Shown here one piece after another: positions 18,063 to 41,946 of a stretch of 64,000 bases of DNA. This DNA is from Naegleria gruberi. Its lineage: Eukaryota. The notes under the pieces were generated by a model. The model was not told the origin of the DNA. It searched no databases and saw nothing but the letters and a program-made list of their open reading frames with translations. The first letter of the stretch is position 1; every line of letters begins with the position of its first letter. The stretch lies in the NCBI GenBank assembly GCA_000004985.1, contig GG738876.1. One strand, written 5' to 3'. A program made the position numbers and the translations under genes.

Positions 18063-20207
18063 ATGCCTGCAACACACTCAAAAGTAGAATTGCCAACCAA
18101 GAGTGATTATTGGCTTGAACAAATGATTCTTGATATGATTCATTCGTTTGATGGACTCACCGCTAGGAAAGTACTCACAAGTAAATATACATACATTGCA
18201 ATTGCACTTGCTGTTGCTGTCAAGTTTGGTTCATCCTACTTGTTAAAAAAGAAGAAGAAGAATTTACCAGCACACAACAAACCACGTTCCTCAAATACAT
18301 CAAAAGATTCCACTTTGAAAAAGTTCTGGAGTTTGGTTAAAATTGGTCTTTTTAATCCAAATGGAGCAGGAAATTCTAGTGCAATGAAATATAAAACAGA
18401 TCCTGCCAATGGAAGAGAAATATGGATTATGGTTGGCCTTGCTTCCCTTGTTATCTTCCAAACATATATTGTTAATAGAAACAACAGTGTCAGTGGTGAC
18501 TTGATGGCTAGTTTAGTTGCCAGAGATTCTGCAACTTGTATTTATAGATTACTCCAAATTACAGGTATTTTAATCTTACAATCTCTGGTCAATCCATCCG
18601 TTACATCACTTATTGAAACACTTGCTTTGAGAATGAGAAAGAATTTGACTATGGATATTCATGATCGTTATTATACAGATATGGTTTACTATAAGATTTT
18701 GAATTTGGATAAGAGAGTTGGTGCTCCAGATCAAAGAATTACTCAAGATGTTGAAGTTTTCTGCAAACAATTCTCTGAATTATTTATGGATCTCTTGAAT
18801 CCAATTGTAGAAGTTTTATTGTATACTTACGAGCTTACTAGATTGATTGGTTCTGGTGGTCCACTCAGTATTATTTCATATGTCGTCATTGCCTTTGGTG
18901 TTTTGGGTATGGTCACACCAAACTTTACAAAGATGTCATCTGAAGTTCAAAATAAGGAAGGTAAATTCAGATCCATTCACAATAGATGTAAGAATAATGC
19001 CGAACTTGTTGCCTTCTATGCTGGTGAAGAAACTGAACGTTTGAAGATTGAAAAACAATTCGAAGAATTGACATCATACAGTGACTATGTCATTAACAAG
19101 AATTTCTTATTCGGTGTTGTTAATGATTACTTTACCAAATATTCTCCTCATGCTGTTACCTCAGTCATTGTTGGTATTCCAGTCTTCTTTGGTAGATTAC
19201 GTCCATTGCCAAAGGACAAACTTATGGGTCAATTGAGATATTTAATCTCTGTTGTTGCATTTGAATTCTTTGCTTTGGGTAAAATCATTGAACTTTTCAG
19301 AAAGATTTTGAAATTGTCAGGTATGACACAACGTGTCCACTTGTTGTATCAAGTCATGGATGAACTCAAGCATGGTAACTCTGATAATGTTAACTTTAAG
19401 TTAAAGTCTGCCAAGGCTGGTGGTTCAGGAGGTGAAATTCTTGAAAGTGATGAAATCAAATTTGACAATGTCATTATCAGAACACCAGATAATATTACAT
19501 TGGCTCGTAATTTATCTTTCAATGTTGGTAAGAATCAACACATTGTTATTACTGGTCCAAATGGAGCTGGTAAATCATCATTGTTTAGAATTTTGGGTTC
19601 TTTGTGGCCTCTTCACAGTGGTATTGTCTACAAACCACAAGCTAAGGGTTCAAATGCTCAAGGTTTGCACAAGGAAATCTTCTACTTACCTCAAAAGCCA
19701 TACAATGTTATTGGATCTCTTCGTAGTCAAATTATCTATCCTGATACGCAATTGAAGGATGGATGGAAAGATTCTAATTTGAAGGAACTTTTGGATGACT
19801 TTAGTATTGGTTATTTGGCAGGACGTCACTCAGATGGATTTGATGGTAAACAAGATTGGGACACCTTGTCAAGAGGTGAACAACAAAAATTGGCCATGGT
19901 TCGTCTTTTCTACCACAAGCCAAAGTATGCCATTTTGGACGAATGTACCTCATGTATTTCTGCCGACTCTGAACAAGAATTATACGGAAGATGTGCCAAG
20001 AATGGTATTACTTGTATCACTATTTCACACAGACCAGCCCTCGAAAAGTATCACACTCAAAGACTTGTTTTCAATGGTATGGGTGGTTGGAAATGGGAAG
20101 CCATTAAGGAATGGACTGAAGAAAGTTCTAGTTATGAAGTTAAGGGTGAAGATAATACATTCCGTGACGATAAGGAAGAGGAAGCTGTTGAAGCAACCAA
20201 AGAATAA
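18063..20207 (+). CDS. peroxisomal ABC half-transporter, subfamily D (ALDP/PXA-like)
   Basis: An N-terminal TMD is followed by an NBD with Walker A ITGPNGAGKSSLFRILGSLWP, the ABCD-type signature LSRGEQQKLAMVRLFYHKPKYAILDECTS, and an H-loop ISHRP. 714 aa, single exon. Confidence 0.9.
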   Translation: MPATHSKVELPTKSDYWLEQMILDMIHSFDGLTARKVLTSKYTYIAIALAVAVKFGSSYLLKKKKKNLPAHNKPRSSNTSKDSTLKKFWSLVKIGLFNPNGAGNSSAMKYKTDPANGREIWIMVGLASLVIFQTYIVNRNNSVSGDLMASLVARDSATCIYRLLQITGILILQSLVNPSVTSLIETLALRMRKNLTMDIHDRYYTDMVYYKILNLDKRVGAPDQRITQDVEVFCKQFSELFMDLLNPIVEVLLYTYELTRLIGSGGPLSIISYVVIAFGVLGMVTPNFTKMSSEVQNKEGKFRSIHNRCKNNAELVAFYAGEETERLKIEKQFEELTSYSDYVINKNFLFGVVNDYFTKYSPHAVTSVIVGIPVFFGRLRPLPKDKLMGQLRYLISVVAFEFFALGKIIELFRKILKLSGMTQRVHLLYQVMDELKHGNSDNVNFKLKSAKAGGSGGEILESDEIKFDNVIIRTPDNITLARNLSFNVGKNQHIVITGPNGAGKSSLFRILGSLWPLHSGIVYKPQAKGSNAQGLHKEIFYLPQKPYNVIGSLRSQIIYPDTQLKDGWKDSNLKELLDDFSIGYLAGRHSDGFDGKQDWDTLSRGEQQKLAMVRLFYHKPKYAILDECTSCISADSEQELYGRCAKNGITCITISHRPALEKYHTQRLVFNGMGGWKWEAIKEWTEESSSYEVKGEDNTFRDDKEEEAVEATKE

Positions 20208-20235
20208 CTCGATTCAAAAAATACAATTAAATTAT

Positions 20236-22694
20236 TTATTTCAAATTCTCCAATTCATCGAGTGGGATATCCTCCTCATAAATATCTCGATTTCTCTTCT
20301 TTCCAGTTTCTTCGATTTCCAATGAAAAATCAGCATCAAGAGCAGCATTAGGTGAAGTCAATTGAGCAATTTCATCCTCATCATTTTGTTTTGGAATTGT
20401 CTTAATCTCGAGTAATTTGGTCTTTGGAGCTGCTTGTTGCTTCTTAGGTTTGTGGGTTCTATTATTGAGCTTTGTTTCAACAATCGAAAGCTTGTTTGCA
20501 GTTTCATTCATATGAGAAACAACTCCATTCTTCAAATTTTGTAAATCAGTAACACTAACATTTCTACCAAACGTTTCCTCGCAAGATTTTAACAATGCCT
20601 CTTCTGCTTCCAGACCAGAAGAAGCATTTGTTGATAAAATATTTCCAAATGAGCAAATATATGATTCTAAAACATCTGTCAGCACATTGAGGGCACCTGC
20701 TTTAGCTCCTTCAAATCCTTCATGACATAAAATCATTGATGTAATGCAACTGAGAGCAGAATGTGCATTCTCTTTGGAAAGATTTTGCTCTAACATTTCA
20801 TCTGGGCTCGAACTACTAGCTGAACCTTCAGAGCTTGCACTTACTGCTTTAAGGGGAATGAGAAGGTTCTTTTTCTTTTCTCTTAATTGAATAATCTTAT
20901 CTACATTTTGTTTAACTAGAGTATTGCTTGGCGAATAAATAAATGTGTCATCTTCATTGGAAATGGATGAGATTTGTTTCTTTCCTGGTGGTGGTGGACT
21001 TGTTGGCTCTCTACTCATTTGCAATGTTTGCAATAAATTATTACTTCCACTATTGCAAGAATTTTTGAGAATAGTTTGGGCCAAGTTCTGAAGTTTTGGT
21101 TCCTGTTGAGCTTTGTGAGATTGGCTATATATTTTCTTAATGGTTGACACATCTCGTAATCCCAATTTATATCCTAGATTGGAAATTATACTTAATTGTT
21201 GTTTTGCAAAATCTTTTGAGTTGTTTCGTGTTGCTATCGATGTTAAATGTGAATTTGAGAGACTTTCACCATAATCTGGCAATGTCTCATCATATGTATA
21301 TTCTGGGAAAATACATCTACTATTACTACTTAGGTTTTCAAAATAGAATGAGCTTAGAGAGTTCTCGTGGATACATTTTTGAGTTGATTTTTCTCCTCTT
21401 AGTTTCTTTTTAAATTATTGTTAAAATTCAAATAAGCTATATTCAAACTTACTAATTTTGGAAGTCTAACTTGTGCTGTTGATAAATTCCATCTTTCTTC
21501 CCTGTCGAAAATATCTACATTTTTAATTTCTTTTTGATTCTCTTGTTGAATTTTTTCCTTCAAATCTAAATAAATATCCAAATCCTTTGATGGAAGTATT
21601 TCTACAGTATTTACCTTTTGAGCCATCTCTGTATCAATTATATTCCAAGAATCTGGATCTGAATCCTTATCCTGTAAAGTGCTGAGTTTTATCTTTTTTC
21701 TTGGCTTTGATGTTGATGGCACAGTTGGTGTTTGTTCAGATTCAGAATCAGACATTGGTAATACCATAGAGCTGGCATCTTGCATTTTGGAGAGAGCATC
21801 CAATTTTTCCTCGTCATAGATAGCATTTATAGATGTTGTAGGATTATATAAATTAGAAATGATCATTTGATCAATTTGATTATACTTGTAGAGATCCACA
21901 ATATTTGTATTTTCATCATTTTGCAAATGCATATTTTCTAATAAATCCCTATCTTTTTCCAATGTGTGAAATTCACTCATTTGGAAATATGGCAATAAAG
22001 AAATGTCATCATCGTACAATACATGATTTGTTACAAATGAATCGTATAAAATTGATCTCAATCTCAAAGATAATTCCATAATTAAATTATGTGACACTTC
22101 TCCAGAGGCTTGATTATTGTTCCAGAAATTACCAAATGTATCCTTATTCACAGTAACTTGTTGATACAATTTATACAATTTATCATTGCTAGCTTGTTGA
22201 AAAATGTTGGAAATCTTCTTTTTAGGAGATCGATCCAATTCTTGAACAAGTGAAAACCACTGATCAGATGATGATGTTTGTAGCATACAAGGAGAACAAC
22301 AAGAAGACGAAGTAGGTGAATAATCAGATGGTGATACAACAGCTCTCCTTCCTCCAACAACAATACCTCCCGACGATGATAACAGTGGTGTATTATTATT
22401 ACCAGGCTTTCTCTTTCTTCGTGTATTTGGTGTTTTCAATTGTGTATTATTATTATTACTAATGCTGCTACTACCACAACTCGTTGAAGATGGTGGAGTA
22501 TTATTTCCACCTCCTTGTTGTTGTTGCAATGTTGTAGTACCATGAATACCACTTGTATTGACCGTCAGTTGATGCTGTTGCTGTTGTTGCTGAAGTAAAG
22601 AAGAAGCTTCGCCAACTTCTTTGCCCGTTATTATTGTTGGTGTTGCTTCATGTAAATGGTTGGGCATTTTTTGGAAATGATAGGTTGGCGCCAA
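20236..22694 (-). CDS. Gln/Asn/Ser-rich hypothetical protein, probably 2 exons (track ORFs 21399..22694 and 20236..21282), with an acidic C-terminus
   Basis: The upstream ORF ends next to a gtaagt donor (aaattaGTAAGT, around 21410 on the minus strand). The downstream ORF's frame is open for about 90 nt upstream of its TTG, consistent with a short intron. The joined product has a poly-Q/N N-terminus. The exact junction is unresolved. Confidence 0.35.
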
Positions 22695-22989
22695 ATAATA
22701 TTTTCCTTTTCTCTTCTTGCTTCTTGTGATGGTGATGATGAATTAATTGTCATCATATTGAACAAGAGGATAGATATAATTTGATATGTATGTTAGGAAG
22801 ATGGTTGCTGAAGAAGAATTTTAATGTGAGGATTTGAATTTTGAGTTTTTTGCTTCACCTTCAAGAGAGAAGGTTCTTCATTGAAAAATTAAAGTTAAAA
22901 AAATGTATTGCAATAGTATGTAGGAGATGTTTTTGAAGATTGTTCTAATGTGTTGTGTTATTAATCCTTGTTGTTGTTTGTATTGTGTG

Positions 22990-24499
22990 ATGCGGATTCT
23001 AGTTAGTGAAACAGCACCACTTCATCCTGTAATTTCTAAAAAGACTGGACACTTGTTTGAAAAGAGTTTGATCTTAAAGTATATTGAAGAACACGGAAAG
23101 TGTCCAATTACTGGACAAGATTTAACTCCTAATGATTTAATTGATGTAATTTGTAGGTATCGGATCTTTAATTTCTCTCATCATTGATCATCTTGTATTA
23201 TTGTTCATCTGAATAATTGTTTTAATAGATAAGAAAGGCACTGAATCATCGGTGAAGCCTAGTCAAGCTATTGCCAGTATTCCAAGCATGTTACAAACAT
23301 TCCAAAATGAATGGGACTCTGTAATGTTGGAAACTTTTACTTTGAGACAACAATTGGATAAATCAAGAAAGGAACTTTCACACTCACTTTATCAACATGA
23401 TGCTGCTTGCAGAGTTATTGCAAGATTAATGAAGGATAATGATGACACAAAGAGTATTCTCAGAAAAAATCAAAATAATATGGAAGATGAAACTTCTAAT
23501 ACTCTCTCAGAGACTGTTTCAGAAAGACTTACAAATACTGCAGAAATTCTCTCATCAAATAGAAAACAAAGAACTATTTCACCATCTCTTAAATCACCAG
23601 AGGAAATGTCAAATTCCAACACTCGTTTGTTAAATAGTGAATACAGACTCCATCAAGGAAAGGGTATTCAATCCATTGACGTTTTAAATTCATTGATTTT
23701 AACTGGAGGTAGAGATGGATCAATTTCAGTTTTTGATAAGCAATATAATACTTGTATTGGAGAGTTGAATTCTAATTCTGGACCTGTAAATTGTGCCATT
23801 TTCCACAATACTCCTGAATTTGCCTTTTCAAGTCACAATAGAGATGTTAAAATATGGTCTCTTAAGGATTCTACCTGTCTTCACACTATGGAAAAACTTC
23901 ATTTGGAACGTGTTACTGGACTTGCCTTGCATCAATCTGGTCACTACTTCTTGACATCATCTCTCGATCAGACATGGTCTTTCTGTGAAATTGAAACTGG
24001 AACTAGTTTGTTAAAGAGTAGCAATGATGAATCAGGATATACTTGTATTCAATTCCATCCAGATGGTTTATTATTTGGTACTGGTCTTCAAAATAATGCT
24101 GTAAAGATTTGGGACGTCAAGTCTCAACAAGTAGCTGCTACATTACAAGGACACTCTGGAGAAGTTACCTCACTTTCATTCTCTGAAAATGGTTACTATC
24201 TCGCTTCTTCATCAAAGGATAAGACTGTTCGTATTTGGGATTTAAGAAAAGTGGTACCTCTGCACACATTGCAATTCAATTCACCAGTTAGCAATGCTTC
24301 CTTCGACTATTCTGGTATTTATCTAGGTGCAACCTGTACTGATGGTACTGTTGGAGTTTATCAAGCTAAGGTTTGGACTGAACTCATTAATACAACAGTT
24401 CCAAACACCTGTTCTCCATCAAGCATTCGCTTTGGACCTAATGCTAGTTTTATTGCTGTTTCCGGATTGGAGGACAGCACTTTGCGATTCATTGAATAA
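22990..24499 (+). CDS. PRP19: pre-mRNA-processing factor 19 (U-box E3 ligase plus WD40), 2 exons
   Basis: The MRILVSETAPLHPVISKKTGHLFEKSLILKYIEEHGKCPITGQ U-box aligns with the Prp19 N-terminus. An intron at about 23146..23233 (gtaatt...ataag, 88 nt) joins ...LID|KGTESSVKPSQAIASIP. Then come QNEWDSVMLETFTLRQQLD...LYQHDAACRVIARL and C-terminal WD repeats. Confidence 0.85.
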
Positions 24500-24559
24500 A
24501 AAGAAATTGTAAAGTAAACGAATTTAACACGAACTTCGAGATCAAAAAACAAGAAAAAA

Positions 24560-25478
24560 ATGGGTGTAGACGTTACCGTGCTAATGGTCAATCTGGACCA
24601 ATTTGAAGATTTGGGTATGCATCTACTTTTTTACTTTATTATTTAATACTTTGTAAATAGCTGAGAAACTTGTCTCCGATGAAACAGAAGATCCATCTTC
24701 CTACAAACAAGATTTGTTAGAATTAGATAGCAGATTTTATATTAACAGTTTCCGCTTGAGAGCTGCCGGTGAATTAGCAAAATTTGCAGCTAAATTCGGA
24801 TTATCAGAAACTTGGTCTGATTCAACCCAATTAGATGAATTGTTGTGTAGTATTGGCACATTTAGACAAGACAGTACAATCATACTAACTCAGGAAAACT
24901 CTGATGAAGTGGAGGAATATGTTGAATTTCCTAACTTGATTGAGTTGGGAGAAGCTTACCAATCAGTTGCAGAGTACACTTTCACATTCATTCATCCACT
25001 TTTGATTGCAGAATTGAGTGCTCATTTCGAACATCAAAATAGCATTCCTATTGAATTATTGGAAAAAGTATTCGAAAATGAATATGAAGAATATGTTCGT
25101 CCAAAGAAATTGAGAAAACCAAATTCCAATGAAGAAAGCATCGATGGAATAAGAGAATGGTTAAGCCATAATGATGAATATGTATTCTTCACCAATATCC
25201 TATTGTATTACAATACACCTGAACGTGTCTTTTCTCTTTTGGAAAAACCAAAAATTGGAAAGGAAAAAGTGAAAAATATTTTACAACCACTGCTGATGAA
25301 ATTTGAAGATATTGCAGATGAATATTGGATTTTAATTATGGAATTTATTGAAGATCCATTTTCATTGACAAGATTTGGAATGGCTCATTCGAAATTCTAC
25401 AATATTCTTTGTAAGAATCGAAAAGAATGGTATGCAGAATTCAAAAGAAATATTGGATTATTCTCATACCTGAGCTAA
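24560..25478 (+). CDS. conserved hypothetical protein, 2 exons (24560..24614 and 24661..25478), family not recognised
   Basis: The first exon MGVDVTVLMVNLDQFEDL ends at a gtatgc donor. The aaatag acceptor rejoins the frame at AEKLVSDETEDPSSYKQ..., continuous with track ORF 24714..25478. Confidence 0.45.
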
Positions 25479-25603
25479 TTACCCTTCAAATGTTCTTCAC
25501 ATTGTACGAATTAGTTCTTGTTTTGCTAGATCATTAAATTTATTAAAGCATTCTCTAATAATTTGTAAGAAAGTATTCAATTAATTTAAAAAGAGTTCCA
25601 GCA

Positions 25604-26338
25604 ATGTATGTTGCTAATCAAGCTGTATTGGCATTGTATTCATCTGGAAAGACTAATGGAATGGTTATGGATTCAAGAGATGGAATTACACATGCTGTTC
25701 CAATTAATGATGGATTTGCCGTTTCAGATGCAATTGTGAGTTTAGAATTGGCAGGCAGTGACATTACTGATTGTTTAATGGAAATGTTGAAGGGGAAAGG
25801 GTTTCCTCAACTCCAATCCTTAACAAACGAAAGAAGAATCTTTAGAGATATTAAGGAGAAGCACTGTTATATTTCTCTTGATTTCAATACTGAAATGGTA
25901 AATGAAACATCTTTATCTATTCAAAGAGAATATGAACTACCAGATGGGTCTATCATTCCAATTGATAAAGAACGATTCAAATGCACAGAAGTTCTTTTCC
26001 AACCAAATTTGATGGAATTAGAATGTGCCTCCATTCATGAAACTATTCTCAGCTCAATTGGTAAATGTAATATTGAAATGAGAAAGAATTTGTTCAGTAA
26101 CATTCATATATCAGGTGGAAATACAATGTTTGAGGGAATTTCTGAACTATTGACCAAGGAACTGACTGCACTAGCTCCATCTGCAATGAATGTTAAGATT
26201 ATTGCTCCTCCTAAGAGGAAATATTCTGTTTGGATTGGTGGTTCGATTCTTGCGAGTTTTATTGAACATGATATGTGGCTTTCGAAAGAGAATTATGAAG
26301 AATTTGGATATGAAGTTGTTCATAGAAAGTGTTATTGA
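25604..26338 (+). CDS. actin-like protein, C-terminal half only (homologous to about actin residues 132-375). Orphan 3' fragment, possibly a truncated paralogue or pseudogene.
   Basis: MYVANQAVLALYSSGKTNGMVMDSRDGITHAVPI...DIKEKHCYISLDF...YELPDGS...KYSVWIGGSILAS...HRKCY is roughly 50-55% identical to actin subdomains 3/4. Homology extends 3 codons upstream of the Met (VPA|MYVA). The N-terminal 130 residues are absent, because the preceding gene ends about 125 bp upstream. Confidence 0.6.
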   Translation: MYVANQAVLALYSSGKTNGMVMDSRDGITHAVPINDGFAVSDAIVSLELAGSDITDCLMEMLKGKGFPQLQSLTNERRIFRDIKEKHCYISLDFNTEMVNETSLSIQREYELPDGSIIPIDKERFKCTEVLFQPNLMELECASIHETILSSIGKCNIEMRKNLFSNIHISGGNTMFEGISELLTKELTALAPSAMNVKIIAPPKRKYSVWIGGSILASFIEHDMWLSKENYEEFGYEVVHRKCY

Positions 26339-26720
26339 GTTCAGTATTCTTCTTGCTGGAATACTATTGATCACCATTCAGAGATGTCAGATGCGAAGAA
26401 CGCAGAAGTGTTTGTTGTTTGTAAAAATTATTACGGAAATATTTACTGAAATTTGTTTTAGTTATTCGAAAGAAATGCATTTACGAATCCACAAAGATGC
26501 ATCATCATATCTTAAAGGATAATAATGCCGATCCAGTAGGGCGGCAATCCTCTTATTTCTAACAATTTGTACGAAACCAAGTTGAAATTGTAGAATCTTG
26601 TTTGTAAATGGAAAGAGATGGTATTTTACAAATTAATTTAAACTGTCCCTAGTACGTACATTTTGTTTGAAATGATTGAAAGAAAGTAAGAGTAAAGGGT
26701 TTATTAATCATTCAAAAAGA

Positions 26721-28520
26721 ATGTCAACAATACTTTCGAATAGTTTATTCATCATTACTTTACTCTTGCTTGTTGTTTCGAATAGTTACCAATCAACCAA
26801 CAACAGCAACTTGACAACCGTTACTTCATTCTACTACCCACAATACGAATGTCTCAAACACACTCCAGTCAACCAATTCTACTATCCTTTCATGTTCACT
26901 CTCGATACTCCCTTCTATGATTATTGTAAATTGCCAACGATTGGAAATGCACCACAAGATTTCTATAAGGACTCTCAATTGATCAGTTCATTATTGGATG
27001 GTTCATTCTCTTGTGTTGATTTCCTGTGTTCCAATGACAAGGAATGGAACCTTTCGAATAAGACTCAGCTCACTACACTTGGAGTCATGTGGAATTATTG
27101 TTTTTATTGTAATACTGAGGGAAGAAATTCATCATCAATTAATTCGACAAGTGAAATATTTAGAGAAAAACTAATGTTGGGTCAATGTGATGCATTTTCA
27201 ATTGCAAATTCATCGTTGAATTTCTTGGAGAATTTCAATCGAGTTTCGAATAGGCATTGTAATGGAGATAGCTATGTGGAGAGACGTCATTTACCATTCC
27301 TTGAATATTACTTTTTCCAAACAGATTACTTTATCAATTCGTTTGCTAGATATAGAAAGAATAATTTCAATGAAGTTTATTCTGATGCAAAGACTTACAT
27401 TTCCAAAGTTAAACTTCAATCCATTCTCACCTTTTATTTTAAAGATTTATTCGAAAGGTCAACACTTGATTCAGCCCCTCTCAACATTCCAGTTTCATGT
27501 TGGTGTGATTATGGATCTAGCTCCAAAACCATTGGTTTTCAATGCTACGATTATTATCAGGGATGGCAATTATTATGTACCTATAGAATATGTGTTGTGA
27601 TATTTACTCTATTATATGGCAGTTGTTCATTGTTTTATTCATTGGTTTTGGTGGTACCGAGAATTGTGGAGAGAATTTCCTCATTCAAACAGAGAAATGA
27701 TATTAGATTAATGGAAACTAATTGTAAGAAACCTCTCTATTTCATTAGACATTTTTTAGATATTGTAACACAACCTCCAATTTTCTTTACATTATCTGCA
27801 TTCTTTGGAATGTTGGAAAACTGTTTCAGATTTCTATTTAATTTTAGTGTTTTTAATGGATTTTTCAATTCTTTCTATTCGGGAATTTTTAGATCGATTT
27901 CAATTGGTTTGGCATGTTGTGGATATTCTGCATTGGTTATTTCATGGGCTCATGTGATTGATTTGGCAAAGAGAAAGACATCCTCTGCTCCCTTTTCAAG
28001 TCAATTGTCAAAATTGAATGTTGTAATCTTGACAATTTGTTACATTGGCATGTTAATATCAGGAATTGTGAGTGCAATCATTTTGATTGTTGTGAAGAAC
28101 TCATCTACTGGTTATATCTTCTTGACAGTTGCTGTACTGATCTATCTCTTTACATTTGTAGTTGGCTTTGCATTTTATGGAATCAAGATTTTACTTTCCC
28201 TCAGAAAAACCTCAGATACTAGCTCAATTATTGAGTATCGTTTCACCAAATTCATTCTATTAGAAACGGTCTTCTTCCTTATTGGTTGGATTGTTTCACT
28301 CTTCATGTTAGTTTCGTACGTGTTTGGTTTCGATTCGATGGGACTTTTCTGGGGACTCAATAGAAATATTTTCATGGATACCATGTTGAATGCAGTTTCC
28401 ATTCTCTCATGTTACATTACTTTCAATAGGAATGCATTCGAAATGGTGTATGGAAAGAAGTTTCTTTCATTGTGTTCATGTGAAAAGAATAATGATACTA
28501 CAAGTGATAATAAACAATAA
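26721..28520 (+). CDS. seven-transmembrane receptor-like protein with an N-terminal secreted Cys-rich ectodomain (putative GPCR)
   Basis: Signal peptide MSTILSNSLFIITLLLLVVSNSYQ, a roughly 300-aa ectodomain with many Cys and NxS/T sites, then 7 hydrophobic helices (LLCTYRICVVIFTLLYG ... NAVSILSCYITF) and a short tail. The true ATG is at 26721. Confidence 0.55.
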   Translation: MSTILSNSLFIITLLLLVVSNSYQSTNNSNLTTVTSFYYPQYECLKHTPVNQFYYPFMFTLDTPFYDYCKLPTIGNAPQDFYKDSQLISSLLDGSFSCVDFLCSNDKEWNLSNKTQLTTLGVMWNYCFYCNTEGRNSSSINSTSEIFREKLMLGQCDAFSIANSSLNFLENFNRVSNRHCNGDSYVERRHLPFLEYYFFQTDYFINSFARYRKNNFNEVYSDAKTYISKVKLQSILTFYFKDLFERSTLDSAPLNIPVSCWCDYGSSSKTIGFQCYDYYQGWQLLCTYRICVVIFTLLYGSCSLFYSLVLVVPRIVERISSFKQRNDIRLMETNCKKPLYFIRHFLDIVTQPPIFFTLSAFFGMLENCFRFLFNFSVFNGFFNSFYSGIFRSISIGLACCGYSALVISWAHVIDLAKRKTSSAPFSSQLSKLNVVILTICYIGMLISGIVSAIILIVVKNSSTGYIFLTVAVLIYLFTFVVGFAFYGIKILLSLRKTSDTSSIIEYRFTKFILLETVFFLIGWIVSLFMLVSYVFGFDSMGLFWGLNRNIFMDTMLNAVSILSCYITFNRNAFEMVYGKKFLSLCSCEKNNDTTSDNKQ

Positions 28521-29047
28521 TGTGATTGGTAAAGGATTGAATATTCTTGATCTCTGTTTCAATTTTCGTTCAAACTTGCACCTCATCTCCCATTTTCCTT
28601 GAAATTCAATTGTTCGGAGATGAGTGGGAGTTATTAATTGAAAATTCCGCAGTAGTAAGCACAATCTGTTCACAAGTCCATTACTTCTCCTCATGAAATC
28701 ATCAATTAATATTGAAAATTATTTGGATGTAGATATTGCAATTTCCTTCGTGTTCTCCATCTTTATTTCTCTGTGCATTATCAAAAACTACACACAGGTG
28801 CGCCCAATGATTGATCAATATTGAACCTTTTTTCATTCCTCCCACACGTGTGTGCTCCCTATCAATCATTAAGAGCATCAACATGATCCATTCAACAAAT
28901 GCAAGAGAGGCTCTCTTGAAAATTTTGGCGCGCAACTAAAATCTATGTGATTGTGTATTTGAGACTGATGGGAAGATGCTTTGAAAAAATATCTTTTTAA
29001 AATAATTTTAAATAAATTATTGTTGAAGAAAATTGATTCTAGAAAAA

Positions 29048-32017
29048 ATGTCTTCGTACGGAACGCACGGCGATGGTGGAGATGGGTTGGAATCGAGTAA
29101 ACAACTCAATGTGCTCCAAAAGATTGCTAGAAATAGAGTGGTGAATATTGTTGGTGCGATAATATTATCAATTATTTTATTATTGAGTATTGGATGTTGT
29201 GTTGTTGTTGGTGTGCTTCATTCACATTTGCTTTTCCAATGTGGATTTGCTGAATTTATATTTATGTTACTTCTTGAAGGCGCTACATTCTTCTTCTGTA
29301 TTTATCACTTGTACAATATTTACAAGTTTTTCAAGACTAGAGCACGACACTCTGGTAAGAAGGGAATTTCCGCTATTGTTGCTGCTTTATGTTCATCAGA
29401 AGTAAATCAATACAATGCATATTCTGATTCCAGACAAGGAAATGAAGAAGATGATTTTGATGATGAAGAAGATGATGAAGATGACGAAGAAGAGGAGGAA
29501 GAAGAAAGCAAATTTTCCAAGTTTGTTGTCGGCTTTTTGAAGATTGCTGCCAATGCTATTGCTGTTTTATGTTTCATCATTTTGGTACTTTTCACAGTTG
29601 TTGTCGTTCCATTGCAACAACAAACCTACCCAACTTATAACGGTACTCTTAAACTTCCAAAGTTTACACCAAAGGGATCTTCTGCTCCTACAATTTCACG
29701 TGAAAGTAATGGTGTTGTTCACATCAAGGCTTCACACGATTATGATTTATATTTCGCACAAGGTGTAGCTGTTGCTCAAGATCGTTTGTGGCAATTGGAA
29801 TTTAATCGTAGATTGTCAAATGGTATTTTGGCTGAAGTTGCTGGTGCTGATGCTGTCAATGTTGACAGTTGGTTCAGAACTCTCGGATTTGCTCGTTCTG
29901 CTGCCAACATTTTACCAACCATTGATGCTGAAACTCTTTCATTCATTCAAGCATATTGTGATGGTATTAACTCTTATATTAATAGTAATCCACCACTTCA
30001 ACCTGAATTTGTTCTCCTCAACACTAAACCAGTTGAATGGACTCCAAGTGATGTTATTGCTTATATGAAGTTTGTTTCATTCTCTCTTTCTGATAATATG
30101 GAAAAGGAAGTTTGGAGATTCAAGATGATGCAAAGAAATATCACAAAGGACAGAGTTAACGAATTGGTTCCTTTCTACCCAACTGATATGCCAACTATTT
30201 TGAGTTTGGAAGAAATGAATTTGCAAAACGTTCCAGTTGAAGAAAGAGAAAAGATTGAAAAGGCTCAACAAGATGATTCTGCTGCTTTTATTCCAAAGGC
30301 TATTCACAATTTGACCATGTCTGTCATGGAAGAAATGTTCGCTTCATTGGAAGAATCTGGTGAATGGGGTAAACAAGCTGTCAGATCAGTTTTGAAGGGT
30401 ATGGTTGCTCCAGATATCACTGGTAACAAGGCCTCAAACAATTGGGTTCTCGGAACCAAGATTACAGCAAACAATGGATCATTGTTGGCTAACGATCCTC
30501 ATTTGGATTTGACTGCTCCAGGTATTTGGTATTTGGCTCATTTGGAAGGTCCAACTCACAATGTTATTGGTTCTACTTTTGTTGGTCTTCCAGGTATTGT
30601 TATTGGTAAGAATGATTTCATTTCATGGGGTGTTACTACTGGTCTTGTTGATGCTCAAGATTTGTACGTCATGTCCGAAGTTGAAGAAGGTAAAACTTAC
30701 AACTACAATGGTAAAGTTCTCCAATATGAAACTCGTACCGAAACTATTAATGTTAAGGGAGCTGCTGCCAAGACTATTACTGTTAAGGAATCTGTCTACG
30801 GTCCAGTTATTAATGACCACTACCAAGTTGATGGTAACGTTTTGTGTTTGAAGTCTTTGACTACCTACACTAATGATACCACACTCCAAGCTTTCCTCAA
30901 GTTGAACAGAGAAGCTAAGGATTGGAACTCATTTGTTGATGTTGTCTCCTTGTTCGTTTCCCCATCCCAAAACTTTGTCTTTGCTGACAAGAGTGGTAAC
31001 ATTGGTTACTATTTGGCTGGTTTGGTTCCAATTAGAAAGGAAGGTCACAATGGTAGATTCCCAGTTATTGGTGATGGTAGCTATGATTGGCAAGGATTTA
31101 TTCCAGCTGCTGAAAAGCCAAGCGTTTACAATCCAAAGAAGGATTACATTGCTTCTGCAAACAACAGAGTTACTCCTGTTGGTTACAAGTACAGTATTAC
31201 CCAAGATTGGTACTCTTTCTATAGAGCTAGCAGAATTGTCTCATTGATTGAAACTGCTATTGAAAAGGGAACTCCACTCAATTTTGAATACATGAAGAAG
31301 ATGCAACACGACGTTCACTCACCAGTCTTTGATCAATTCAAGTTTGTTTTTGAAGCTATTCCAAAGTTCAGAAATCTCACTGAAAATAAGGAAAAGTTGA
31401 GAGAAAAGTTGATTAATTGGGACGGTGATGAAATTTTGTACTCTCAATCTGCTTCCATCTTTGAAATGTGGTACAAGATTATGGGTAACCTCACCAAGGT
31501 TGAAACTGTCAATAGATGGTCTTTCGGTCCATATCTTTACAATGCCTTGAAGAATGGTGATAGTGCTTGTGAAAATTATCACAACACTACTTGTATGTTG
31601 TTCGCTATTGACAGCTTTGAAAATGCCATTGATGCTCTTGAAGCCACTTACGGTTCTATTCCATTGTGGGGTTCTGATATTCACGAATCTGAATTCCCTA
31701 ACCCGGTAATGGATAATACTGTTCTCAAATGTTTGGCTGGAGCTACTCGTACTACTGTTGGTGGTTCTTCAACCATTAATGTTGGTGAAACTCAATATCC
31801 TGCCCTCAATTCAAGATGGGGTGTTTCTTATAGACAAGTTGTTGATTGGCGAGGCAATCAAGCTTCATTCATCATTCCACTCGGTCAATCTGGTAACTTC
31901 TTATCTCCTCTTTACACCAACTTGTTAGAAATGTGGTCTGACCCAACTGGTCAATACTTGGACATGAAATCTGCTGGTTACACTGCAACCAATACCCTTT
32001 CTCTTTCCTCTCAATAA
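29048..32017 (+). CDS. penicillin amidase / N-acyl-homoserine-lactone acylase family Ntn-hydrolase with an N-terminal 3-TM anchor and an acidic (D/E) loop
   Basis: Family motifs ...GNKASNNWVLGTKITANNGSLLANDPHLDLTAPGIWY (Ser nucleophile at the start of the beta-subunit, SNxW) and downstream segments conserved with PvdQ/PGA. The N-terminus has three hydrophobic helices flanking EEDDFDDEEDDEDDEEEEEEE. 990 aa, single exon. The true ATG is at 29048. Confidence 0.8.
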   Translation: MSSYGTHGDGGDGLESSKQLNVLQKIARNRVVNIVGAIILSIILLLSIGCCVVVGVLHSHLLFQCGFAEFIFMLLLEGATFFFCIYHLYNIYKFFKTRARHSGKKGISAIVAALCSSEVNQYNAYSDSRQGNEEDDFDDEEDDEDDEEEEEEESKFSKFVVGFLKIAANAIAVLCFIILVLFTVVVVPLQQQTYPTYNGTLKLPKFTPKGSSAPTISRESNGVVHIKASHDYDLYFAQGVAVAQDRLWQLEFNRRLSNGILAEVAGADAVNVDSWFRTLGFARSAANILPTIDAETLSFIQAYCDGINSYINSNPPLQPEFVLLNTKPVEWTPSDVIAYMKFVSFSLSDNMEKEVWRFKMMQRNITKDRVNELVPFYPTDMPTILSLEEMNLQNVPVEEREKIEKAQQDDSAAFIPKAIHNLTMSVMEEMFASLEESGEWGKQAVRSVLKGMVAPDITGNKASNNWVLGTKITANNGSLLANDPHLDLTAPGIWYLAHLEGPTHNVIGSTFVGLPGIVIGKNDFISWGVTTGLVDAQDLYVMSEVEEGKTYNYNGKVLQYETRTETINVKGAAAKTITVKESVYGPVINDHYQVDGNVLCLKSLTTYTNDTTLQAFLKLNREAKDWNSFVDVVSLFVSPSQNFVFADKSGNIGYYLAGLVPIRKEGHNGRFPVIGDGSYDWQGFIPAAEKPSVYNPKKDYIASANNRVTPVGYKYSITQDWYSFYRASRIVSLIETAIEKGTPLNFEYMKKMQHDVHSPVFDQFKFVFEAIPKFRNLTENKEKLREKLINWDGDEILYSQSASIFEMWYKIMGNLTKVETVNRWSFGPYLYNALKNGDSACENYHNTTCMLFAIDSFENAIDALEATYGSIPLWGSDIHESEFPNPVMDNTVLKCLAGATRTTVGGSSTINVGETQYPALNSRWGVSYRQVVDWRGNQASFIIPLGQSGNFLSPLYTNLLEMWSDPTGQYLDMKSAGYTATNTLSLSSQ
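29441..29506 (+). repeat. GAA/GAT (Glu/Asp) trinucleotide-rich coding microsatellite within the acylase gene
   Basis: gaagaagatgattttgatgatgaagaagatgatgaagatgacgaagaagaggaggaagaagaa. It also yields a poly-Ser antisense ORF (29407..29595) in the track. Confidence 0.6.
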
Positions 32018-32195
32018 TTTAAAGTCATTATTAAATAAATAATCTAGTTTGTATATATTTACTGTTGTTGTTAATATGAAAGAAGCGTTTCTGTGGCGAA
32101 ATTCAACATCTTCAACTGGATTCACTGAGGTTTGATCATTGTCACTTTTCAATATCTTCCTGAAAAGGGCACAAACTAAAGTTGAAAAAAACAAA

Positions 32196-40235: not shown

Positions 40236-41946
40236 ATGTTTAAAAAAATGAAAAAACAAGTTTCGTCCACTTTCTTACTGGTTATTTATTGTATTTTCGC
40301 TGCTTGTTTCTTGCTCAGTTCTGCTGAAGGATTAGTTCCATCCACACAACCATACTTTTTATGGCCTAATCCACAAACAGGAGAAGCAACAGTTTATTTT
40401 AAAAACGGAGGTTCGAAACCAGTCGAAACTTTGTGGGTTGGTTATGCTGCTTGGAAAGATGCCCCACAAGTTAAAAGCAAAATTTCCAATTTGATTTCAA
40501 GAGGAATTGTTCCATTCATGTAGGTTTTGATTAACTTATTTTATTGGAAATATTATTGGAAAGTCAATCTTATCATTTTGGAGATAATGGACTCAGAGGA
40601 CAATTCGAATTAGCTCTTGCTTTTGATAGAGAAATTGCTAGTGCTATTGGAAACTCTTTTGCCATTGTAAATTTGGAACCAGAATGGGATGTTGATGTTG
40701 TTTTGAATTTATTCAAATCTTCTCAAGGAACTCAATCATTATTGAATAGAATTCAAACATTTAAGAGTCTGGCTCCAAATTCAGTGGTTGTGAGTACTCC
40801 AGGATTGTGGAAATCAGCTCAGGACTATTCATTCTTTAGCTCTGTAGATTCCAAATTGAATGCTCGTGCCATGTTGATGCATGTTGTGAATTCTGGAGAT
40901 GCATCATGTGCTAAGAAACAAGATGGATCATTGTGGCCATATGGTGTAAAATCTTTGAGTGAGGGAATTTCAATGGTCAAGAGTAAGATTGATGAAAATT
41001 TGAACAAGATGACACAAGCTTGGGGTGGTTCTTTACCATTTGAGTGGATTTTGAGTGATGTTGGTGTTACTAGTTGTGGATGGGGAGCTGATGGACAAGC
41101 TGCTATTGTTAATGAATTGATTAAGGTGAGTAATTTTTTATATAACAATGAATATTCGAATTATTGAAATATTGTGGAATTATTTATAATATCAGAATTT
41201 GGATTGTTTATATGCTAGTGGATTCCGTGGATTTAATTTGAGAAATTCAGGTCCATCTGATTTATGGGAAAGAGCTATGGGTATCAACAATGAAGGAATG
41301 TTCACATTCACCACAAGTGCAGCAACCATGAATGTTATTAAAACTGGATTGACCAAGGTTAATGCATTCCTTGTCAATGGCCAAAAACCTTCATGCTCTT
41401 CAAATAATGGTGGATCAAATTCTGGTTCAACTTCCTCATACAAGGTCAATGTCATTAGTGGAAGTAATGATTGGTGGACTCAAATTGAAGTTTTGCCAAC
41501 TTCATCTGTTCAAACAGTTGTCTTGAAATGTGGATCTGCATCAACTTCATTGGAAAGACCAGCTTGGTCCCAAACTCAATTTGTCAAAGGACTTTCCGCA
41601 CAATGCCCAATGGGATCAGATATTCAAGTTATTGTCAACTCAAAATATACCTATCCTATCAAGTATACTGTTGGAGCTAGCTCTGCAAATACTCTCAGCG
41701 ATATGCCACCTCTATTCCAAAATTCTCCAACCAAATANNNNNNNNNNNNNNNNNNNNNNNNNNNNNNNNNNNNNNNNNNNNNNNNNNAGTTTGAAGCAAA
41801 TTAGTGAAAATACTTGGGAAGGTGAAATGCAAAATGGTTTTTGCCCAATTGGTGCCAATGTTCAATTGTTTGTAGTGTTGAGAAATGGACATGTTGAAAG
41901 ATATGATATTATTTATGGTTATGATAATGTTGCCAGATTGTATTAA
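40236..41946 (+). CDS. secreted multi-exon protein with C-terminal tandem Trp/Cys-containing beta-domain-like repeats (possible carbohydrate-binding). The gene is interrupted by an assembly gap.
   Basis: Signal peptide MFKKMKKQVSSTFLLVIYCIFAACFLLSSAEG. Exons are about 40236..40519, 40564..41125 and 41196..>41747, with the stop at 41946. Introns are 44 nt (gtaggt...gaaag) and 70 nt (gtgagt...atatcag). Repeated C-terminal segments are ...DWWTQIEVL...CPMGSDIQVIVNSKYTYPIKYTVG and ...NTWEGEMQNGFCPIGANVQLFVVL...YDIIYGYD. Family unassigned. Confidence 0.45.
41748..41787. other. assembly gap (40 N) inside the 40236..41946 gene
   Basis: A run of n characters. The reading frame differs on the two sides, so the true gap length is unknown. 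Confidence 0.95.

What the first reader, a model, noticed from the sequence alone, without database searches (positions are those of the whole stretch)
25560..26338. Orphan actin 3' half starting exactly at a conserved internal methionine
The 244-aa ORF is co-linear with actin from about residue 132 to the C-terminus, and retains the VPA residues just 5' of the Met. There is no room for the missing N-terminal 130 residues, because the preceding same-strand gene ends about 125 bp upstream. The frame is intact but divergent (about 50% identity), for example CTEVLFQP in place of CPEALFQP. This suggests an old truncated duplicate that is either decaying or expressed as a half-actin.
Basis: partly seen in the sequence, partly recalled or inferred. 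Interest (0 to 1): 0.5.

Follow-up and report, generated by a model that had tools for sequence, protein, structure and literature searches.

The report
Truncated divergent actin gene in Naegleria
This is a real but ordinary oddity: one of the many actin-family genes of the amoeba Naegleria gruberi has lost its first 128 codons, leaving an intact, strongly diverged open reading frame for the back two-thirds of actin that cannot work as a normal actin.

Summary
Window 25604-26338 (+) is a 244-codon ORF co-linear with actin residues 132-375 (E 4e-92; Pfam Actin 233 bits). It is identical to the annotated Naegleria gruberi gene NAEGRDRAFT_69091. Homology starts sharply at 25595 (codons V129-P130-A131) and nothing resembling actin residues 1-128 exists anywhere in the 64 kb. 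The same-strand gene ending 125 bp upstream is complete and independent, because its C-terminus is conserved in four Naegleria homologues. That rules out a fusion or a nearby 5' exon. The ORF lies in a 4.6-kb interval that N. lovaniensis and a metagenomic Naegleria lack at the syntenic Prp19/penicillin-amidase locus. It is 56-59% identical to every actin, while Naegleria actins are 82-99% identical to each other. The divergence is not neutral decay: simulated neutral drift to this level gives about 7 stop codons (0 of 2000 runs stop-free) and far more radical replacements. Catalytic residues and subdomain-1 core residues are largely retained, apart from G156R. My best reading is a fast-evolving, formerly full-length actin paralogue that lost its 5' end fairly recently. 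A selected, stand-alone half-actin is not excluded. Expression could not be tested. Low to moderate interest.

The parts
25604..26338 (+). 244-codon ORF (= NAEGRDRAFT_69091 / XP_002675721.1 / UniProt D2VJM4) corresponding to actin residues 132-375. By standard actin subdomain boundaries this is all of subdomains 3 and 4 plus two orphan pieces of subdomain 1 (residues 132-144 and 338-375).
25595..25603 (+). Three residual actin codons (V129 P130 A131) upstream of the ATG. Homology to actin DNA begins exactly at 25595, so the breakpoint lies between 25594 and 25595 (codon 128|129).
   Evidence: GTTCCAGCAATGTATGTTGCTAATCAAGCTGTATTG against N. lovaniensis actin GTTCCAGCCATGTATGTCGCTATTCAAGCTGTCTTG. 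The sequence 5' of this is unrelated.
25479..25594 (+). AT-rich spacer (about 26% GC) between the upstream gene's stop and the breakpoint. It holds the in-frame TAA at 25559-25561 and shows no residual similarity to the 5' part of actin.
   Evidence: local alignment score 10 against shuffles of 10.6 +/- 1.6
24561..25478 (+). Context: a complete, independent upstream gene (one intron, 24618-24661) from a small Naegleria-only family. Both its N- and C-termini are conserved in homologues.
   Evidence: the splice enumeration shows that the only well-formed in-frame join would delete the conserved C-terminus
24500..29100 (.). Context: an interval between Prp19 and penicillin amidase that is specific to N. 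gruberi among the genomes compared. It holds the upstream family gene, the half-actin and a 614-aa multi-pass membrane ORF. N. lovaniensis and a metagenomic Naegleria instead carry one LRR/F-box-type gene of about 610-620 aa here.

Best explanation
This is the surviving 3' two-thirds of a fast-evolving, once full-length member of the greatly expanded N. gruberi actin family. A lineage-specific rearrangement of the Prp19/penicillin-amidase interval cut the gene between codons 128 and 129 and removed its 5' part and promoter. The universally conserved Met132 sits three codons past the breakpoint, so the remnant still reads as a clean ATG-to-stop ORF and gene callers annotate it. The product would lack the phosphate-1 loop, the DNase-I-binding loop and the core of subdomain 1. 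From established actin structure, it could therefore neither bind ATP normally nor polymerise as actin. Shown here: the truncation, the sharp breakpoint, the absence of the 5' half in 64 kb, the independence of the upstream gene, the locus being lineage-specific, and non-neutral divergence. Inferred: that most divergence happened while the gene was full-length, that the truncation is comparatively recent, and that the remnant is not functional as actin.
For: Truncation and breakpoint. The upstream gene is complete, with its C-terminal ..DIGLFxYLS* motif conserved in 4 homologues. Synteny: the flanks 20001-24499 and 29099-32020 are co-linear with N. lovaniensis L001 and metagenomic Naegleria L002, but 24500-29100 has no counterpart there. 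No actin lies near Prp19 in N. lovaniensis, L002 or Willaertia, nor beside the N. lovaniensis homologue of the upstream gene. Heterolobosean actin ancestry: the ORF shares the derived states N265, G283, I287, E311 and E363, and the best PDB matches are all actin, not Arps. Long private branch: 56-59% identity to all actins, against 82-99% among Naegleria actins and 80-86% between those and Dictyostelium. No closer paralogue or orthologue appears in a 5.8-billion-protein search. Non-neutral divergence: neutral simulation to 58% identity gives a mean of 7.4 stops and 0 of 2000 stop-free runs. The observed mean BLOSUM62 score of replacements is +0.37 against -0.56 +/- 0.16 simulated. dN is 0.30 against a saturated dS of about 1.9. 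Full-length context for most of that history: 15 of 17 nucleotide-contact or catalytic positions are kept (Q137, D154, D157, G158, H161, K213, E214, G301/302, K336). The two orphan subdomain-1 pieces are the best-conserved part (65% identity; 20 of 22 large hydrophobics still hydrophobic), although they have nothing to pack against in a half protein. Background: N. gruberi is reported to have 78 actins plus Arps (PMC7594500). EFC42977.1 sits in the large pangenome orthogroup OG0000001 'Actin-1' (PMC9928731 Table S5). Partial actin-domain pseudogenes of 41-135 aa are documented in Dictyostelium (PMC2441452).
Against: The ORF has no disabling mutation. It sits at normal tandem-gene spacing (125 bp upstream; Prp19 to the next gene is only 62 bp), so it could well be transcribed. 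The same facts fit a selected half-protein. No full-length parent or orthologue was found, so 'formerly full-length' is inferred, not observed. Retention of catalytic residues is only marginally above the 58% background (roughly P = 0.06 by my own calculation). Expression, the decisive datum, could not be examined.
Confidence: 0.6

Rival explanations
1. A functional stand-alone 'half-actin'. The ORF is transcribed from the 125-bp spacer, translated from Met132 and kept by selection as an inner-domain (subdomains 3+4) protein. It might act as a filament-end blocker or as a decoy for proteins that bind subdomain 3 or the barbed-end groove.
For: The 244-codon ORF is intact despite 42% amino-acid divergence. 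Replacements are significantly conservative and stop-free, unlike neutral drift. Gene spacing is normal. GC3 of 0.25 matches neighbouring genes. G156R in the phosphate-2 loop could reflect release from ATP binding.
Against: No orthologue was found in N. lovaniensis, N. fowleri, Willaertia or metagenomes. The hydrophobic core residues of the orphan subdomain-1 pieces are retained rather than made polar or deleted, which is not expected for a long-lived soluble half. Residues useless without the N-terminal half (Q137, D154, H161) are also retained. There is no expression evidence. AlphaFold gave no confident fold, though the control was equally poor, so that result is uninformative.
Confidence: 0.2
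2. A normal full-length actin-like gene whose 5' exons lie elsewhere (a very long intron, another scaffold, trans-splicing), or an assembly mis-join at 25594/25595.
For: The sequence just 5' of the breakpoint ends in ..TTTAAAAAG|, which could be read as a 3' splice site. A second N. gruberi model, NAEGRDRAFT_54894, also starts at Met132.
Against: No N-terminal actin coding is present in 25.6 kb upstream or 37.7 kb downstream, and several unrelated genes intervene. The three introns reconstructed in this window are short (about 44-85 nt) and end in TAG, not AAG. The N. lovaniensis and N. fowleri actin genes checked are intronless. There are no Ns near the site. The ORF is too diverged (<=59%) from other actins for a repeat-induced mis-assembly.
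Confidence: 0.07
3. An old, neutrally decaying pseudogene fragment whose open frame is chance.
For: It is truncated, has no close relatives, lacks the codon bias of expressed actins (GC3 0.25 against 0.43), and carries G156R.
Against: 0 of 2000 neutral simulations reaching the observed divergence stayed stop-free (mean 7.4 stops). The observed replacements lie 5.7 SD more conservative than the neutral expectation. The open frame limits neutral drift to under about 0.07 substitutions per site.
Confidence: 0.03

Closest known systems
Conventional actin (Pfam PF00022), in particular the expanded Naegleria actin family (pangenome orthogroup OG0000001 'Actin-1')
   Same: It is co-linear with actin residues 129-375. 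It keeps Q137, the D154/D157/G158 loop residues, H161, K213/E214, G301/G302, K336 and the C-terminal ..VHRKC(Y/F). It shares heterolobosean-specific states such as SIGKC and FEGI.
   Different: It lacks residues 1-128: the phosphate-1 loop, subdomain 2 with the D-loop, and most of subdomain 1. Identity is only 56-59%. G156R and T303N lie in nucleotide-binding motifs. It lacks the codon bias of expressed actins. It has no orthologue at the syntenic locus in relatives.
Partial actin-domain pseudogenes of Dictyostelium discoideum (act34_ps to act36_ps and others; Joseph et al. 2008, PMC2441452)
   Same: These are fragments of actin genes left in the genome of an amoeba with a large actin multigene family. 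Their homology covers only part of the actin domain.
   Different: The Dictyostelium fragments are short (41-135 aa) or frame-shifted. This one is 244 aa, uninterrupted, begins with an ATG, and shows a non-neutral substitution pattern.
NAEGRDRAFT_54894 (P0050), a second 244-aa N. gruberi actin model
   Same: It starts at the same Met132 and has the same length.
   Different: It is 99% identical to the C-terminal part of full-length NAEGRDRAFT_48298 and lies on a 4-kb scaffold. It is therefore either a young copy or a scaffold-end artefact, not a diverged lineage. Its DNA could not be retrieved.
Actin-related proteins (Arp1 and others)
   Same: The level of identity to actin (about 55%) is similar, and a few residues are Arp1-like (THAVPI, LFSNI). 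The Arp1 comparison is from my own recollection of Arp1 sequences.
   Different: The 60 best PDB matches are all actins at about 294-299 bits, with no Arp among them. The ORF carries heterolobosean actin signatures.

Membership tests
Actin family (PF00022) | Significant match to the family profile | tested here: met
   232.7 bits against a gathering cutoff of 27, E 7.8e-69; beta-actin 299 bits in the PDB search
Actin family (PF00022) | Complete two-lobed fold: all four subdomains, about 375 aa | tested here: not met
   Only profile positions 126-409 of 410 are matched. No N-terminal half is present in 64 kb.
Actin family (PF00022) | Phosphate-1 loop (residues 11-18, DNGSG) | tested here: not met
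   The region is absent; the ORF starts at residue 132
Actin family (PF00022) | Phosphate-2 loop D154-S-G156-D-G158 intact | tested here: not met
   The ORF reads DSRDG (G156R); the other loop residues are kept
Actin family (PF00022) | Adenosine-pocket and catalytic residues of the C-terminal part (Q137, H161, K213, E214, G301/302, K336) | tested here: met
   All are retained; T303N is also seen in the full-length paralogue P0024
Conventional (cytoskeletal) actin | Very high conservation (>80% identity to other eukaryotic actins) | tested here: not met
   56-59% identity to all actins compared
Pseudogene (non-processed fragment) | Incomplete relative to functional family members | tested here: met
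   Lacks codons 1-128 with a sharp breakpoint at 25594/25595
Pseudogene (non-processed fragment) | Disabling mutations (stops, frameshifts) in the remaining part | tested here: not met
   The 244-codon frame is uninterrupted and co-linear with actin, with only small in-frame indels
Pseudogene (non-processed fragment) | Neutral substitution pattern | tested here: not met
   Stop-codon and BLOSUM62 tests against 2000 neutral simulations; dN 0.30 against dS about 1.9
Pseudogene (non-processed fragment) | Not transcribed or translated | not testable with these tools
   No RNA-seq, EST or proteome data were reachable. The accession was not found in paper texts or in most supplements.
Processed (retro-) pseudogene | 3' poly(A) tract and flanking target-site duplications | tested here: not met
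   No A-run follows the stop. Only short, chance-level repeats flank the ORF. Age could have erased such marks.
Actin-related proteins (Arps) | Closer to an Arp class than to actin | tested here: not met
   The top 60 solved-structure matches are all actin

The most novel reading that the evidence does not exclude
N. gruberi expresses a stand-alone actin inner domain (subdomains 3+4 plus the C-terminal helices) that has been kept by selection since it lost the ATP-binding N-terminal lobe. It would act as a non-polymerising modulator, for example by occupying filament ends or sequestering partners that bind the barbed-end groove. If NAEGRDRAFT_54894 has the same breakpoint, half-actins might arise recurrently at codon ~129.
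Probability: 0.15. Interest if true: 0.6.

Novelty: new member of a known kind. Interest (0 to 1): 0.2.

Why it matters
Mostly as annotation hygiene. NAEGRDRAFT_69091 (UniProt D2VJM4, named 'Actin') is counted among Naegleria's many actins, but it encodes only residues 132-375 and cannot be a working actin, so it should be flagged as a fragment. It also illustrates turnover in a very large actin family and a local rearrangement that distinguishes N. gruberi from N. lovaniensis. Only if the ORF proves to be expressed and under selection would it become interesting, as a natural single-lobe actin.

Tried and rejected
1. Splice fusion with the upstream gene. I enumerated every in-frame, stop-free GT..AG join. 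The one candidate with a good donor (GTAAGA at 25411 joined to the AG at 25594-95) would delete a C-terminus that is conserved in four homologues, so I rejected it.

2. Hidden N-terminal exons. tblastn and an HMM against all six frames found nothing.

3. Orthologue by synteny. I looked around Prp19 in N. lovaniensis, a metagenomic Naegleria and Willaertia, and around the N. lovaniensis homologue of the upstream gene. No actin was present.

4. Orthologue by motif. A metagenome scan for D-S-[R/S]-D-G..H.VPI..G returned 7 contigs. All are decayed or chimeric actin copies from other organisms, closer to normal actin than to this ORF.

5. N. gruberi genomic DNA for paralogues. P0001, P0024, P0037 and P0050 are not on record, so dN/dS used N. 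lovaniensis actin instead.

6. An ancestral intron at the breakpoint. N. lovaniensis and N. fowleri actin genes are intronless.

7. AlphaFold2. The half gave mean pLDDT 45. The control, the conventional-actin half P0050 with the same 34-sequence alignment, gave 51.6. The prediction is therefore uninformative and I ran no fold search.

8. Flanking repeats, TSDs and a poly(A) tract: none credible.

9. A gene-conversion patch at the 5' end. Third-position identity is 0.73 in codons 129-143, but this is not significant after correcting for 16 windows.

10. Literature and supplement searches for expression of gene 69091. The only hit was its listing in the pangenome actin orthogroup.

Full report
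**What is there**

The window is Naegleria gruberi. The ORF at 25604-26338 (+) translates to a 244-aa protein 100% identical to NAEGRDRAFT_69091 (EFC42977.1 / XP_002675721.1, UniProt D2VJM4 'Actin') on a 396,977-bp scaffold.

- tblastn of a full-length actin against the window gives one significant hit: actin aa 130-376 at 25595-26335, 56% identity, E 4e-92.
- Pfam Actin scores 232.7 bits over profile positions 126-409 of 410.
- The best solved-structure matches are all actins at about 294-299 bits, with no Arp among the top 60.
- The three codons before the ATG encode VPA as in Naegleria actins (..FSVPAMYVA..), and an in-frame TAA lies at 25559-61.
- At DNA level, similarity to an N. lovaniensis actin gene begins exactly at 25595 (GTTCCAGC.ATGTATGT..). 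The 116 nt upstream show no residual similarity to the actin 5' part (score 10 against shuffles of 10.6 +/- 1.6).

The one correction is that identity is 56-59%, not about 50%.

**Is the N-terminal half really missing?**

Yes, within this window.

- No actin-like coding sequence for residues 1-128 is found in any frame of the 64 kb (tblastn to E 10; HMM of aa 1-131 against six-frame pieces, best E 3.5).
- The only assembly gap is 15 kb away.
- The preceding same-strand gene (24561-25478, one 44-nt intron) is real and complete. A full HMMER scan of 1.8 billion representatives finds four homologues, all Naegleria (N. lovaniensis C9374_013243 and C9374_009080, N. gruberi NAEGRDRAFT_73009, and a metagenomic one).
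- The alignment with those homologues conserves both the N-terminus (MGxD..NL) and the very C-terminus (..DIGLFxYLS*). The stop at 25476-78 is thus the true end of that gene.
- The one well-formed in-frame GT..AG join to the actin frame (25411 to 25595) would delete that conserved tail, so I reject it.
- A 125-nt spacer is normal for tandem genes here. Prp19 to the next gene is only 62 nt, and spacers in N. lovaniensis are 168-312 nt.
- The two Naegleria actin genes whose DNA I could fetch are intronless. The three introns reconstructed in this window are short and end in TAG. The ..AAAAAG just 5' of the breakpoint is therefore a poor candidate acceptor.

**Genomic context**

- Window 20001-24499 (ABC transporter end, bromodomain gene, Prp19) and 29099-32020 (penicillin amidase) are co-linear with N. 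lovaniensis (L001) and a metagenomic Naegleria contig (L002).
- The 4.6 kb in between (upstream family gene, half-actin, 614-aa membrane ORF) has no counterpart there. Those genomes carry a single LRR/F-box-type gene of about 610-620 aa instead.
- No actin lies near Prp19 in Willaertia or next to the N. lovaniensis homologue of the upstream gene.
- The half-actin therefore sits in a rearranged interval that is specific to N. gruberi among the genomes compared.
- No protein in a 5.8-billion-sequence search is closer to it than ordinary actins, at <=60% identity.
- A metagenome scan for its unusual DSRDG motif found only degenerate actin copies from other organisms.

**Origin and mode of evolution**

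- The ORF shares several derived heterolobosean actin states (N265, G283 in SIGKC, I287, E311, E363) and a few states seen only in the divergent N. gruberi actins P0024 and P0037 (T258, L266, F294, N303). It descends from a Naegleria actin, not from an Arp or a foreign gene.
- It is about equally distant (56-59%) from all actins. Naegleria actins are 82-99% identical to each other and 80-86% to Dictyostelium. Almost all the change is on its own branch.
- Against N. lovaniensis actin, dN is 0.30 and dS about 1.9 (saturated). GC3 is 0.25, like its neighbours, against 0.43 for actin.
- For scale, N. gruberi/N. lovaniensis orthologues at this locus have dS about 1.4 and dN 0.17-0.20.
- I simulated neutral drift of an actin C-terminal coding sequence, with an AT-biased spectrum, down to 58% identity. 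This takes about 0.25 substitutions per site and yields a mean of 7.4 stop codons. None of 2000 runs stayed stop-free.
- The simulated replacements average BLOSUM62 -0.56 +/- 0.16, whereas the observed replacements average +0.37. The divergence was thus filtered by selection on a protein.
- About 5.9% of neutral point changes in the present ORF would create a stop. An open frame is therefore compatible with at most about 0.07 neutral substitutions per site.

**Was that selection on a full-length protein or on the half?**

This is inferred, not shown.

- 15 of 17 nucleotide-contact or catalytic positions of the C-terminal part are unchanged (Q137, D154, D157, G158, H161, K213, E214, G301/302, K336). 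The exceptions are G156R and T303N.
- The two pieces that belong to subdomain 1 (132-144 and 338-375, by standard actin subdomain boundaries) are the best-conserved part at 65% identity, against 58% for subdomain 3 and 54% for subdomain 4.
- 20 of their 22 large hydrophobic residues are still hydrophobic, although in a half protein they would have no core to pack into.
- This pattern is what a complete, ATP-binding, fast-evolving actin paralogue would leave. It is not what I would expect after long adaptation to life as a soluble half.
- Together with the sharp breakpoint and the rearranged locus, I conclude the following. The most likely history is a divergent full-length paralogue that lost codons 1-128 comparatively recently. 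The frame survives because little time has passed, and conserved Met132 supplies a start codon.
- I cannot exclude that the remnant is transcribed and has acquired, or kept, some function.

**What it could and could not do**

This section rests on established actin structure. The product would lack the phosphate-1 loop, the sensor loop, the DNase-I-binding loop and most of subdomain 1. It could not close a nucleotide cleft or make the D-loop/groove contact needed for polymerisation.

**Structure prediction**

AlphaFold2 gave mean pLDDT 45 for the half. It gave 51.6 for the equivalent fragment of a conventional actin (P0050) with the same alignment. The prediction says nothing either way.

**Comparison with what is known**

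- N. gruberi is reported to encode 78 actins and Arps, with more than 20 actins in each Naegleria genome (PMC7594500).
- EFC42977.1 is simply listed among more than 30 N. gruberi members of orthogroup OG0000001 'Actin-1' in the Naegleria pangenome (PMC9928731 Table S5).
- Partial actin-domain pseudogenes are documented in Dictyostelium (PMC2441452).
- A truncated member of a large, dynamic actin family is thus a known kind of thing. What is unusual here is the long, clean, non-neutrally diverged frame.

**An unresolved lead**

A second N. gruberi model, NAEGRDRAFT_54894, is also exactly 244 aa and starts at the same Met132. It is 99% identical to full-length NAEGRDRAFT_48298 and lies on a 4-kb scaffold. 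Whether that reflects a scaffold end or a shared breakpoint could not be checked.

**Verdict**

It is a truncated, divergent actin-family gene remnant, already annotated but not flagged as a fragment. It is probably non-functional as actin. A minority possibility, about 15-20%, is an expressed and selected half-actin. Interest is low to moderate.

Noticed in passing
window 24500-29100 vs L001 11776-14194 and L002 1935-3925: There is a synteny break between Prp19 and penicillin amidase. N. gruberi carries three ORFs here (Naegleria-only family gene, half-actin, 614-aa membrane protein). N. lovaniensis and a metagenomic Naegleria carry one LRR/F-box-type gene of about 610-620 aa. tblastx finds no similarity between the two versions, and that LRR gene is not elsewhere in the 64-kb window.
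   Followed up: yes
window 24561-25478 (+), intron 24618-24661: This gene belongs to a small family found only in Naegleria (4 homologues among 1.8 billion representatives; one is named 'F-box domain-containing' by UniProt). The N-terminal MGxD..NL and C-terminal DIGLFxYLS motifs are conserved. It has no Pfam hit. Neither this protein nor N. gruberi Prp19 appeared in the word-indexed protein search, although the half-actin did.
   Followed up: partly
P0050 = NAEGRDRAFT_54894 (not in the window): This is a second N. gruberi actin model of exactly 244 aa that starts at the same Met132. It is 99% identical to the C-terminal part of full-length NAEGRDRAFT_48298 and lies on a 4,096-bp scaffold. Its 5' break must fall within codons 124-131, the same narrow window as the breakpoint here. 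It may be a scaffold-end artefact or a recurrent breakpoint.
   Followed up: partly
L008-L014 (metagenome contigs): All seven metagenomic matches to an actin phosphate-2 loop with Ser or Arg in place of G156 look like degenerate or chimeric actin copies (unrelated sequence or stops just upstream, other invariant residues changed). Loss of G156 may therefore be a marker of non-functional actin copies.
   Followed up: partly
window 26721-28520 (+): A 600-aa ORF has a signal-peptide-like start, many N-x-S/T sites and a C-terminal multi-pass hydrophobic region. It has no Pfam match and lies in the same lineage-specific block as the half-actin.
   Followed up: no
hits P0002-P0007, P0020: The top-scoring 'homologues' after the self-hit are actin models from other genomes that contain internal tandem duplications of actin segments. 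These are likely mis-assemblies or mis-predictions, and they outrank normal actins only because of the duplicated stretch.
   Followed up: no
window 41738-41787: This 50-N run is the only assembly gap in the window, and it is far from the feature.
   Followed up: no
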